From NCBI RefSeq assembly GCF_018350175.1, contig NC_058382.1, positions 48,858,001-48,922,000 on the forward strand: DNA of 64,000 nucleotides. The letters run 5' to 3'. Positions 21,030-26,631 of this stretch are shown one piece after another. The DNA is from Felis catus. Taxonomy: Eukaryota. Under the pieces are notes generated by a model, which ran no database searches, was not told where the DNA came from, and worked only from the letters and a program-made list of their open reading frames with translations. Numbering within the stretch: the stretch's first letter is position 1; every line of letters starts with the position of its first letter. The position numbers and the translations under genes are program-made.

Positions 21030-21143
21030 CCAGAAGCTGGTCCCTCTGCTGGTCCATGCGCTCCAGAGTCTCCAACAGACGGTCCACCTGGGCTTTGATC
21101 TGGCTTAGCTCCCCCCTGATGGAGTGCAGCTCCTCGGTCTGGA
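21030..21143 (-). CDS. RALY/hnRNP C-like gene, coiled-coil (leucine zipper) exon
   Basis: LQTEELHSIRGELSQIKAQVDRLLETLERMDQQRDQLL versus hnRNP [39 protein letters not shown]; phase 1-1; alternative donor after 20991. Confidence 0.85.
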
Positions 21144-21288
21144 CTGTGTGGAGAGGGGCCGGAGCTGGTGTCCCACGGCCCAGGAGGCAGAGGGCATAGC
21201 TGCCCATGCTCCCGGGCCTGCCCTCACTGCCGAGGTCCTCCCAGCTCTTTCCTAGCCCTGTAGGTGAAGGCTCTGCCCCTTCACTCAC

Positions 21289-21437
21289 GCTTTATTTGCT
21301 CTTGGGGCAGGTGGCTCTTCCTGGGGCCCTTGTGGGGACTGCAGCTGCTCTTGATCCCCATGCCCACCTGGGTCCTCCGGATCTTGACAGGCACGCGGTT
21401 AATGAGTGGAGGGATTCTTTGGCATTCATACACACTA
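21289..21437 (-). CDS. RALY/hnRNP C-like gene, Pro/basic exon
   Basis: SVYECQRIPPLINRVPVKIRRTQVGMGIKSSCSPHKGPRKSHLPQEQIK; resembles RALY RAVPVKRPRV...KIK; phase 2-1; donor gtgagt. Confidence 0.8.
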
Positions 21438-21517
21438 CTGGGACAGGATAGAGAGGGAGTCAGGCCAATCAGCCCCACCTGTTTACCCAGAGGACCAACG
21501 GGGCAAGACCCACCTAC

Positions 21518-21571
21518 CGGTAGGGGACATCTTCCCTGTACAGCTTGTAGTCCAGGTCATAGTTACTGCTG
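21518..21571 (-). CDS. RALY/hnRNP C-like gene, Tyr/Asp-rich exon
   Basis: SSNYDLDYKLYREDVPYR versus hnRNP C SSFDLDYDFQRDYYDR; phase 2-2; donor gtaggt. Confidence 0.8.
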
Positions 21572-23041: not shown

Positions 23042-24744
23042 CCTCCCTTCCATTTTTTTTTTCTTACAACTTTTTGACGTAGTCAAAAATGAATGGTGTA
23101 GGAATGATATTTCATTGACTGCTTAGCACAGACTGGAGAGCAGCCTGAGTTGAAACACACACAGGATGGGTTTGGGAATTAGATGTTAGGCTACGTGCGC
23201 CCCACAGCCGTCCTTGCTGCAGTTACGGGGTCCCTCTTGGCCTGAAGGAAGGTGGGCTCTGGTGCCGGCCCTCCTACCCTCATCCCACCCCATGCCACCC
23301 CTCAGTCATCAGCCAGGGCTGATGGCAACTGCCCTTGAGTCTTTTCCCCCAAGGGGCAGTGGCCTGGTCACATGGCTTCTCCGTGCTCTGTCCTCTGATC
23401 TGGGTTAATTGCTACAGTCTGCGAGTCCGGGCTTCCCACAAAAGGAGAAATAGAACACTCCTTCAGAACGGTGCTGTGGGCAGAGGTCAAACCACCTGTG
23501 TCCGCGGGGACTTGGGACAATCCTCACACCACAGGCCTTTCCCTACAGGTTGAAAAATTCCATTTGGAGGCTCAGGTCACATGTCCTGGACTTGACTAGT
23601 TCTCACGGACAGGTCATCCAGCAGCTCAGCAGCTGCCAGAACACATCCCCAACCTGTCGTTCCTCTGGGCACCATCCTAAGACCCAGAGCCACAGTCCCA
23701 GCTGCCCACCCACTGCTGCCCTGGACCCAGGCGGCGCCAGTGACAGCCCCCTACCCCCCACCCCCACCCCGCAAAATGCTTCATTCTCCCTACTGGAGTC
23801 TCTACTGGGGATGTGTGACTTAAGGAAGTCACCCCTGCCCCCAGCCTTGAAGGCGGGGTCCCCTCTGAATGGAGTCCGAGCCCCTGCCAGGCAGCTGCCA
23901 TTACGCCCCATTGCCTCCCTATTCCTGCACCTGCACCCTTCAGAAGGCTGGCAGAAGCAGGTCAGAGCAGGCTGGGAAGGTAGTGGGGGAGGACAGGAAA
24001 TCCGAAGGTGACAAAGCGAAGAACTGAGGCCCTTAGGGGCAATGGGGTTGATTCCCATGGTCAGTTTGGGGTGTGCAGGAGGCCTCAAAAGTGGCCTCAA
24101 AAGTGGCCACGGTAAAAAAGCACATGAGAGAACTACAGCAGAGAACCACTTTGCTCCTATCAGACAGTGATAATTACCAAACCCCCAGAATCACGAGATG
24201 CAAGGCAAACCAACACCACATATGCAGTTCTGCTCCACTGAAGAGATGCGAGTTTAAAAAACCGCATTACCTGTGAGCACACACCTACTCATCAGCCCCA
24301 AACAAACGCAGTGCAAAAGCCACCCACGCCGGCACACTCACAGGGTGACACAGACCTTCAGGCTGACGCTGACAGGGAGAGATTTGGCTTAATCTCTCTC
24401 AAGGTCAACCTGGAGGTTCAGGGACTTCTCAGATCAGCCCCCAGCCCAACCCCGCCATCTCCTTTCCAGGAAGATGAGGCAAGGTGAAACCCAAAAGAGA
24501 CTGGAAACTTTGGCCCCAGGGGATTTACACACTGCTGTTCCTAACAGCAAACACCTGCCCCACCGCCTCCTCCACCGCAAGACAGAAACCACCCAAATGC
24601 CCGCAGGAGGGCCAGGAGCTGAGTGAGGCCATCACAGATGCCCAGCTGAGGGGACACTCGTTACGCCTGTGAAAAGGGCACGTTAGCTGGCAGAACGTGA
24701 CAAGCTCCTTTCTGAAAATGTTTAAAGATTTCTTAATATTATCC

Positions 24745-24954
24745 TCTTTTTTTTTTAATGTTTATTTTGTTATTGTTGGGAGAGAGAGAGCAAGCATGAG
24801 TTGGGGAAGGGCAGAGAGAAAGGGAAACCAAGAATCTGAAGCAGGCTCCATGCTGTCAGCACAGAGCCTGACTTGGGGTTCAAATTCACAAACCCTGAGA
24901 TCAAGACCTGAGCCGAAGTCACATGGTTAACCGACTGAGCCGCACAGGCACCCC
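24745..24954 (-). mobile_element. Can-SINE
   Basis: Reverse SINEC structure. Confidence 0.8.
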
Positions 24955-25363
24955 TTAACATTTTCTTACACTTCCCAAGTTAGGGGCAAGATTTCATCCA
25001 GGGAAGTTCCCATTTGCTACTTCCCAAATATCTGTACCTGGAAAAAGCCCCCAAGCACCATGAAGGTGGGGATCCCCTGGGAGGACCCATGCCCCCTGGC
25101 TCCAGGTGGGAGGAGGGGGCATCCTGCCTCGGTCAGCAGGTGGTGCTGGGTGACATCAGCGATGAGAAGCCTTGGAATGAACGGGTCATCTCCTTCAGTT
25201 TATGGACAAAAGCTGAGGCCGAGTGAGAAGGAACCCCCAGGTGCCACAGTGAGTTCCCTGAGCTGGCCTCCTGAGCTCCTTGTTCCATCCCAGGGGGACC
25301 CAGAGCCCCAGACAAGCCCGCAAGCAGCCCCCCTCCCCTGCGGACAACCCTGGACAGACTCAC

Positions 25364-25434
25364 CAGGAGATGGCTGTGCCCGGCTGCCTCTTCTGGCCTT
25401 GCTGGGTGGGGCCGGGCCTGGGCTCTCCAGCCAT
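25364..25434 (-). CDS. RALY/hnRNP C-like gene, first recognisable coding exon (exon begins 25442, ATG at 25434)
   Basis: ctctttctctcttcag|AT TTA GAC ATG GCT GGA GAG CCC...TCC TG|gtgagt = (D)LDMAGEPRPGPTQQGQKRQPGTAIS versus RALY/RALYL DINMAGEPKP...KR..SA.Y; gacATGg Kozak context. Confidence 0.8.
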
Positions 25435-26631
25435 GTCTAAATCTGAAGAGAGAAAGAGCAGGGCAGAGCATAAGAGGAGGGAGGGAGGGGCGCAGAGGAA
25501 GGGCCCAAGTGCACAGGGGCTTCACTCACTTCCAGGCTGGCCCCTCCCTGCTCCTCAGCCCCCAGGCAGTGGGTATGGTCCCCTGAGTGGCCCCGAGACA
25601 CGGAGCAGCAGAGTGGGCCGCCTGGCCTGACCTCCTTCACACCCCGAACCCACCATGGCAATCAACCGCATTGCCTATGCCCTTGGTGGTACCATCAAAA
25701 GGCAGGAGGGACGATATCCGTGGTCTTCGTGTCCTCTGGGGAGACACCTAGCCCTGGCCAGAGACAGTTTTCGAGTGTTCTGCTGCCTGTCTGCCTGCCC
25801 ACTTGCCTGCCTGCTCCCGGCCCACGCACTGCAGCTGCCTGTGGGCTAAGCCCCTGGGTCGGAGATGGTCGCGGTGGCTCTAAGAGAGAAGCAAAGCCAG
25901 CAGCTGGCCTGCTCTGGGGAACAAACACCCCACTGCCCTCTGTCGGTGGGGGAGGCAAGAGTCGGCCGATCCCATGTAGGGGAGGACTGAGATGGGTCTG
26001 TGCGCCAGTCACCGCAGATCTTCTAGTCTCTGGGCTCCTCTCCTTTGCTGTTCACCACTGGAGAAAGCAGCTCTTCCACAGTGGGAGAGGGAGGGGACTC
26101 CTGCGTACCCTCACTCGGTGCTCAGGGCCTGGCCCTAAGTAAGTGCCACTTGATGTCTGCAGAATTCATGAATGGAAGTCCATGAAATCGATTCTGTTTT
26201 TTTTTTGGGGGGGGGGTTGGATGCGACCCCAGAGTTTCGCTTGTGACTTCAAGGCCCCTCCCCTGAGCCCAACCCCTTTCTTCCTGTCTGTGGTCCACTG
26301 TGGCTGCCAAGATGGTAACAAATGGGAGCCTTCTCATTTTCCTGTTCTCAAGACTTCATGCAACACGAGAGCCAAGAGCACTTACTCAGCACCTGCTTGC
26401 TTGCCGTGGAGAACAGGAGACTGGCCGTAGTGTCTCTGAGGCACTGACGATCCAGACTGTGTGTTTAATTAGGAGGAAGTTGGAATTTATCACCCCCACC
26501 TTAGCCTTCCTCTTCCACTCATGCTTCTGATTCATCCACTCAAGGACACATTACCCAAATGTCCATGTACCAAGGTGAACGTCTGTAGTTTGTCTCGTCT
26601 GGCTTTCTGTGTCTATTCCTTTGGTATATCT

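What the first reader, a model, noticed from the sequence alone, without database searches (positions are those of the whole stretch)
21030..25442. RRM apparently lost while the oligomerisation zipper is kept: possible dominant-negative microprotein
Seen: the exon that follows the RRM exon in RALY/hnRNP C (DLDMAGEP) is present with its phase-1 acceptor, and its internal Met has a good Kozak context (gacATGg). I found no convincing RVFIGNL or HKGFAFVQ exon upstream in the window. The zipper exon is the best-conserved part: 14 of 29 identities to the recalled hnRNP C zipper, with heptad Leu/Ile/Val retained. Known: this zipper drives hnRNP C tetramerisation. Inference: an RRM-less subunit could join hnRNP C/RALY oligomers and reduce their RNA binding, or could act as a scaffold.
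Basis: partly seen in the sequence, partly recalled or inferred. Interest (0 to 1): 0.72.

Follow-up and report, generated by a model that had tools for sequence, protein, structure and literature searches.

The report
Fourth hnRNP C gene without RRM

Summary
Observation confirmed. A felid six-exon gene (minus strand, 25442-19568, 202 aa from the DLDMAGEP Met, no stops) lies between CLEC18 and EXOSC6. There is no RRM in the window or on its contig; the genome holds only three RRM exons of this family (HNRNPC, RALY, RALYL). The loss is ancient: 0 of 343 orthologue-group proteins (teleosts, coelacanth, lungfish, amniotes) carry an RRM. They form one clade (99/92) on the fourth contig of the MT-MMP/NDRG paralogon, so this is a fourth ohnologue. 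Outside placentals it starts with a 12-codon exon homologous to the exon that gives RALYL its RRM-less isoform, so the gene probably kept only an ancestral short isoform. 'Dominant-negative microprotein' is only partly supported: the protein is 202-231 aa and keeps the basic region, and hnRNP C without its RRM still tetramerises and binds long RNA (PMC9943658). Most likely it is a basic-zipper subunit that dilutes U-tract specificity. Binding, RNA binding and felid expression are untested. RefSeq labels it 'Raly-like'; ten paper searches listed no study of it. The scan noted this same stretch before, and none on other DNA.

The parts
29159..29237 (-). Candidate upstream coding exon of felid models (ATG at 29237, 26 codons + 1 nt, phase-1 donor); no RRM; seen only in felid models
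   Evidence: Matches the N-terminus of P0004/P0005/P0006; ATG and donor located; not checked with reads
25364..25442 (-). Exon A (79 nt, phase 1 to 2): (D)LDMAGEP..., homologue of the exon that follows the RRM exon; holds the conserved Met
   Evidence: same phases in HNRNPC (70 nt) and RALYL (76 nt) of this genome
22956..23026 (+). tRNA-Gly(GCC) in the intron on the opposite strand, beside a CpG-rich stretch from which some mammalian models start
   Evidence: ARAGORN, Rfam RF00005 66.1 bits, CpG o/e 0.53 at 22001-23000; bear model P0018 maps to 22824-22777
21518..21571 (-). Exon B (54 nt, phase 2 to 2): Tyr/Asp-rich auxiliary segment
   Evidence: alignment A1
21289..21437 (-). Exon C (149 nt, phase 2 to 1; tandem acceptor 3 nt downstream): Pro-rich stretch and basic region
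21030..21143 (-). Exon D, leucine zipper (114 nt, phase 1 to 1; longer form ends at 20991)
   Evidence: acceptor and donor at the same codon positions as in HNRNPC, RALYL and RALY
20527..20669 (-). Exon E (143 nt, phase 1 to 0): mildly acidic tail
   Evidence: tail 14 D/E and 9 R/K in 73 aa, against 30 and 8 in 79 aa for an HNRNPC protein
19568..19606 (-). Coding part of the last exon, ending in TAG
   Evidence: NH.SD.EGSQ ending conserved in amniotes
18907..18912 (-). AATAAA, candidate polyadenylation signal
   Evidence: Only AATAAA on the minus strand between 17700 and 19600; use not shown

Best explanation
A functional fourth ohnologue of HNRNPC/RALY/RALYL that encodes a natural 'delta-RRM' subunit. 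Origin: the pre-duplication gene had a long RRM isoform and a short isoform starting at a 12-codon exon inside the intron after the RRM exon; this copy lost the RRM exon before the bony-fish radiation and kept the short form (RRM loss and exon homology shown; order of events inferred). Action (inferred): the zipper forms an antiparallel four-helix bundle with itself and probably with hnRNP C-family subunits, and the basic region gives sequence-independent RNA contact. Mixed tetramers would carry fewer RRMs, weakening U-tract-directed work such as competition with U2AF, while length-dependent wrapping of RNA is largely kept: a specificity diluter rather than an off switch.
For: Intact frame, identical from the Met to an annotated Felis catus model. 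0 of 59 first hits with a Pfam RRM; 0 of 343 orthologue-group proteins with the RRM profile, against 30 of the other 70. One clade, 95/89 with 43 rows and 99/92 with 39. All 4 MT-MMP tail matches and the 4 intron-bearing NDRG genes lie on the same four contigs as the four family genes (paralogous regions listed in PMC1867822, passages). RALYL short exon found in this genome between its RRM and DINMAGEP exons, 12 codons + T|GTAAGT; it scores 11.9 bits on a profile made only of fish and coelacanth orthologue first exons, reached by 73 of 100000 shuffles and by 1 of 1123 window ATG 12-mers, which lacks a donor. Zipper core L187, I190, D195, L197, L198 at 100% in 174 unique orthologue zippers. hnRNP C without RRM tetramerises, binds long RNA and excludes PHAX (PMC9943658).
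Against: No interaction, RNA binding or felid expression was shown here. Basic count (median 9) is like RALY's, whose basic-zipper is weak and whose RRM deletion loses RNA. The clade has its own zipper residues (Q at 193 in 96%, M204 94%, D205 86%) that could restrict partners. The ancestral first exon is not found in the felid window (best 0.8 bits against 16-44 for true exons) and has lost its ATG in the placental models that keep it. Sistership with HNRNPC is only 84/70 to 91/79, and alternatives are not rejected (p-AU 0.054). No shark, gar or amphibian orthologue was among the named hits, and one coelacanth model (P0269) is cut at the 5' end.
Confidence: 0.45

Rival explanations
1. True dominant negative: it enters hnRNP C/RALY/RALYL tetramers through the zipper but binds RNA poorly, so it lowers RNA binding overall, as Id proteins do for bHLH factors (analogy recalled).
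For: No RRM; hydrophobic core kept; basic count like RALY's, and RALY without RRM brought down no RNA; RALY's basic-zipper put into hnRNP C removes PHAX exclusion.
Against: Net charge of at least +6 in 218 of 246 unique orthologue basic regions, median 0 acidic residues, which a pure decoy need not keep; about 110 residues besides the zipper are conserved in amniotes; 202-231 aa.
Confidence: 0.25
2. Independent homo-oligomeric scaffold: clade-specific zipper residues make it pair mainly with itself, and it works apart from hnRNP C, perhaps through the conserved YDLDY..YR and YEYQ.IPP segments.
For: Q193, M204 and D205 are kept from fish to cat and differ from HNRNPC and RALYL (K193) and RALY (N193); long stem branch in amniotes.
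Against: The a/d core is the same as in the paralogues; no data on partner choice here.
Confidence: 0.2
3. Functional in other vertebrates but a relaxed or barely expressed vestige in felids and related mammals after loss of the ancestral first exon.
For: First exon not found; laurasiatherian models have varied 5' ends; faster change in deer, pangolin, catarrhine and muroid zippers (7-12 differences from the non-placental majority); no read support obtained.
Against: Cat zipper differs at only 5 of 29 positions from the non-placental majority; all splice sites and the frame are intact; several RefSeq isoform models exist.
Confidence: 0.08
4. An RRM exon exists upstream but was missed (assembly gap or extreme divergence).
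For: Searches used RRM-less queries, and long hit lists were only partly shown (120 of 184, 150 of 321, 120 of 126).
Against: No N in the window; RRM-bearing paralogues were retrieved by the same search; family RRMs are about 75% identical between paralogues, so one would be found.
Confidence: 0.02

Closest known systems
hnRNP C1/C2 (HNRNPC; zipper structure PDB 1TXP)
   Same: Auxiliary, basic, zipper and acidic regions in the same order; zipper exon boundaries and phases identical; 14 of 29 zipper identities; likely sister ohnologue
   Different: No RRM; fewer basic residues (median 9 against 11.5); weaker acidic tail; Q193/M204/D205; faster evolution
RALYL short RRM-less isoform (annotated in bat, Xenopus and salmonids; exon located in this genome)
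   Same: Homologous 12-codon first exon spliced in phase 1 to the DINMAGEP exon; same domain content
   Different: One isoform of a gene that also makes an RRM form; here the whole gene is RRM-less, and placentals have lost that exon's ATG or the exon
RALY
   Same: Same exon plan, similar basic count, same weak GTCA donor at the end of the zipper exon
   Different: Keeps the RRM and needs it for RNA binding (PMC5499869); no short exon found in its intron
Engineered hnRNP C1 delta-RRM (PMC9943658)
   Same: Same domain content; best functional model
   Different: Artificial; its basic region is HNRNPC's stronger one
microProteins such as Id1-4 and LITTLE ZIPPER (recalled, from no call)
   Same: Oligomerisation domain kept, main nucleic-acid-binding domain lost
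   Different: Those are small and lack nucleic-acid binding; this is over 200 aa and keeps a basic region

Membership tests
hnRNP C family (HNRNPC, RALY, RALYL) | N-terminal RRM with RNP2/RNP1 | tested here: not met
hnRNP C family (HNRNPC, RALY, RALYL) | Leucine zipper homologous to hnRNP C 180-208 | tested here: met
   1TXP E 0.0015; 14 of 29; helix 85-125, pLDDT 86-98 in its core blocks
hnRNP C family (HNRNPC, RALY, RALYL) | Basic region of about 40 aa before the zipper | tested here: met
   Cat 9 R/K, 1 D/E; orthologue median 9 and 0
hnRNP C family (HNRNPC, RALY, RALYL) | Acidic C-terminal region | tested here: inconclusive
   14 D/E against 9 R/K in cat; 30 against 8 in HNRNPC
hnRNP C family (HNRNPC, RALY, RALYL) | Shared exon phases and common descent | tested here: met
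   trees
hnRNP C family (HNRNPC, RALY, RALYL) | Tetramer formation and RNA binding | not testable with these tools
   Needs biochemistry; no complex prediction was obtained
Whole-genome-duplication ohnologue quartet | Four copies in four paralogous regions shared with other quartets | tested here: met
   MT-MMP 4 of 4 matches and intron-bearing NDRG genes on C10, C15, C39, C46; markers lie 0.2-2.6 Mb from three family genes (NDRG on C46 41 Mb) and about 14 Mb from this one
Whole-genome-duplication ohnologue quartet | Symmetric ((A,B),(C,D)) tree | tested here: inconclusive
   (RALY,RALYL) 97/93; (HNRNPC, this gene) 84/70; alternatives p-AU 0.054
microProtein (definition recalled) | Small protein with a single interaction domain | tested here: not met
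   202 aa from the internal Met, 230-231 aa in felid models; basic and auxiliary regions kept
microProtein (definition recalled) | Dominant-negative action on the full-length homologue | not testable with these tools
   Needs co-expression assays
Processed HNRNPC retrocopy or pseudogene | Intronless or disrupted frame | tested here: not met
   Five introns, open frame

The most novel reading that the evidence does not exclude
After the vertebrate genome duplications one lineage split the ancestral gene's two isoforms between sister genes: HNRNPC kept only the RRM form and this gene only the RRM-less form. The product is a dedicated tuning subunit that sets the number of RRMs per hnRNP C tetramer, and so separates U-tract splicing repression from length-dependent RNA packaging; RALYL still makes the same kind of subunit as an isoform.
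Probability: 0.3. Interest if true: 0.8.

Novelty: new variant of a known kind. Interest (0 to 1): 0.62.

Why it matters
Reviews list hnRNP C, RALY and RALYL as the family (PMC11288931, passages). A fourth, RRM-less ohnologue kept from fish to cat gives a natural test of an old question: what the basic-zipper half of hnRNP C does without the RRM, and whether tetramer composition is regulated. It is also a clear candidate for a gene born by keeping one ancestral isoform after genome duplication, and it flags a naming trap: the same RefSeq label, 'RNA-binding Raly-like protein', covers both RALYL and this gene.

Tried and rejected
Ancestral first exon in the felid genome: tblastn of model N-termini against the window gave only low-complexity noise; profile scans found nothing in the window or the next 40 kb; genome searches with elephant and platypus proteins did not place it. 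Short exon in the RALY and HNRNPC introns: best -0.8 and -4.8 bits against 27.2 for RALYL, which was in that profile; absence from these two genes rests on this genome and on 17 and 15 proteins only. The RALYL test used a wrong offset and was redone; the zipper identities were out of register and were redone. The uncut six-frame RRM search returned nothing and was redone in chunks. Expression: 20 runs hold half or more of the words of 19400-25600, but only 2 are on record as RNA and the shares include introns; no reads were laid, so this is not used as evidence. Mixed-zipper complex prediction: no job ran, no verdict; a pass would have been expected from likeness to 1TXP. Pairing of the four contigs from MMP and NDRG identities: four-point sums, worked by hand from the printed identities, favour (C10,C46)|(C39,C15) for both, but narrowly and on 57-109 residues. 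Weak Pfam BLOC1_2 hits are below cut-off, taken as generic coiled coil. The Atlas search gave three clusters without a Pfam family and no structure. One search left out four long rows (hagfish, coelacanth A, seabream, P0220).

Full report
Setting. The window is felid DNA: AARS1-type exons on the + strand (name recalled), an intronless 272-aa ORF on the + strand at 16869-17687 (EXOSC6 by recall), CLEC18 exons on the - strand from about 35 to 48 kb, and between them the gene in question on the - strand. It lies at G000:C39:48858001-48922000.

Anatomy. Six exons with GT-AG ends (25442-25364, 21571-21518, 21437-21289, 21143-20991 or -21030, 20669-20527, 19606-19568) give an open frame of 202 aa from the DLDMAGEP Met, identical from that Met to the Felis catus model P0284. 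Phases match the paralogues in this genome: exon A runs phase 1 to 2 as in HNRNPC and RALYL, and the zipper exon starts four codons before L180 and ends 100 nt after it in all four genes. Felid models add an exon with an ATG at 29237. AlphaFold on a 23-sequence alignment gives one helix, 85-125, and low confidence elsewhere (mean pLDDT 58.9).

The RRM is absent. Window scan, sensitivity control, the next 40 kb and two whole-genome searches agree. The genome has three family RRM exons, on C15 (HNRNPC, 95% to the query), C10 (RALY) and C46 (RALYL); these gene names are my assignments by similarity to the fetched proteins. The gene is single-copy.

The loss is ancient. Four searches (59 of 59, 120 of 184, 150 of 321 and 120 of 126 hits listed) and three cluster look-ups gave 413 proteins. 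343 fell to the orthologue group by best match and none hit the RRM profile; 30 of the other 70 did. Many of the 343 are fragments or isoforms; 212 hold exon A, of which 117 have a short MTLF-type exon before it, 49 start at its Met and 46 have something else, including short exons my pattern missed and one CLEC18 read-through. Named members come from placentals, marsupials, platypus, birds, crocodile, turtles, squamates, lungfish, coelacanth and many teleosts. No shark, gar, amphibian, human or mouse name appeared among the named orthologue hits; that is not proof of absence. A cormorant model and two rodent models run from CLEC18 into this gene, which supports conserved neighbourhood in amniotes; for fish, orthology rests on the tree and the first exon.

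A fourth ohnologue. On the post-RRM region the group is one clade (95/89 with 43 rows; 99/92 with 39 rows). RALY and RALYL pair at 97/93; pairing with HNRNPC is 84/70 to 91/79 and other pairings are not rejected (p-AU 0.054). All four MT-MMP tail matches and the four intron-bearing NDRG genes lie on C10, C15, C39 and C46, the four contigs of the family; PMC1867822 (passages) lists MMP14, 15, 16 and 24 at 14q11, 16q, 8q21 and 20q11 as paralogous regions. An earlier first-stage note on this same stretch used the wording 'fourth ohnolog'; the tests are mine.

How the RRM was lost. Non-placental members start MTLF[GK]SE..., 12 codons plus one base. RALYL has an RRM-less isoform with a start of the same length in Xenopus and bat, and a similar one in salmonids. 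In this genome that exon lies at C46:32820558-32820594, between the RRM exon (32638235-32638495) and the DINMAGEP exon (32880596), ends T|GTAAGT and reads MTMYRSKRRHQR. It scores 11.9 bits on a profile made only from 28 fish and coelacanth orthologue exons, more than three amniote orthologues do (1.3-8.7); 73 of 100000 shuffles reach that. Since RALYL and this gene are not clearly sisters, the short exon probably predates their split, and this gene kept only the short isoform (inference). In elephant, dugong, tenrec, galago, lemurs and beaver the exon survives with Val in place of Met; by my reading no laurasiatherian model has it, and it is not in the felid window. The exon A Met is therefore the conserved start in placentals.

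Mechanism. PMC9943658 (passages) shows that hnRNP C binds RNA through the RRM (U-tracts) and a basic region (sequence-independent), that RRM deletion leaves tetramers, long-RNA binding and most PHAX exclusion, and that RALY's basic-zipper is much weaker. PMC5499869 (passages) found no RNA with RRM-less RALY. Here the basic region is kept (median 9 R/K, 0 D/E; HNRNPC 11.5, RALYL 10, RALY 9) and the zipper core is near-invariant, with clade-specific Q193, M204 and D205. I put 0.45 on a basic-zipper subunit that dilutes RRM number, 0.25 on a true dominant negative, 0.2 on a self-pairing scaffold, 0.08 on a felid vestige and 0.02 on a missed RRM. Shown: gene structure, RRM loss, conservation, paralogon, exon homology. 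Inferred: oligomerisation, partners, RNA binding, effect on splicing. No read support and no complex prediction were obtained.

Literature. Ten searches (listings only, of an open-access library) showed no paper on this gene or on the short RALYL isoform. Passages were read of PMC9943658, PMC5499869, PMC13147222, PMC11288931 and PMC1867822, and the abstract of PMC13198548 (a shorter RBM20 isoform from an internal start; a loose parallel). No supplements were read. The gene is annotated automatically in many species under generic names, so it is known as a gene model but apparently not as a distinct RRM-less ohnologue.

Verdict. Real, ancient and probably functional: a new variant of the hnRNP C family that fails the RRM criterion. 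Interest 0.62.

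Noticed in passing
window 35672 (minus-strand donor) to 25442: The CLEC18 exon ending ...NRYICQF has a phase-1 donor, so a CLEC18 read-through into exon A would be in frame; a cormorant model (P0084) shows this join and two rodent models also run CLEC18 into the gene.
   Followed up: partly
G000:C46:32820558-32820594 (L018): RALYL has a conserved short first exon giving an RRM-less isoform, annotated from fish to mammals; no paper on it came up in the searches.
   Followed up: partly
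P0269 and P0193: Coelacanth has two different proteins in the RRM-less clade; one model is cut at the 5' end, so a further paralogue, or an RRM there, is not excluded.
   Followed up: no
P0364, P0405: Two teleost models fuse the gene with a 5-hydroxyisourate hydrolase, pointing to that gene as a neighbour in fish.
   Followed up: no
window 22400-23030: Intronic tRNA-Gly and CpG-rich stretch; bear, hyena and rhino models appear to start here and skip exon A, suggesting a second promoter.
   Followed up: partly
window 16869-18912: The + strand ORF (EXOSC6 by recall) and this gene converge, with about 1.2 kb between the ORF's stop and the candidate poly(A) signal; + strand read-through could mimic expression in unstranded data.
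   Followed up: no
P0150, P0151, P0189, P0156, P0158, P0143: Macaque, gibbon, muroid and deer orthologues have drifted faster in the zipper (7-12 of 29), and gibbon models have an off-frame tail; possible decay towards human and mouse, which could explain the neglect.
   Followed up: partly
window 52641-52726 and 58877-58962: ARAGORN calls of tRNA-SeC and tRNA-Arg are probably tRNA-derived carnivore SINEs; LINE-1-like frames at 59185-60312 (recalled likeness, no Pfam hit).
   Followed up: no
L032-L035 (G000:C39:48922001-48962000): CpG-rich 15 kb just past the window, and PDPR-like exons (name recalled) on the + strand further on.
   Followed up: no
G000:C31:27736130 and C18:43109580: Long uninterrupted NDRG matches, probably retrocopies; by contrast no HNRNPC retrocopy was found in this genome.
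   Followed up: no
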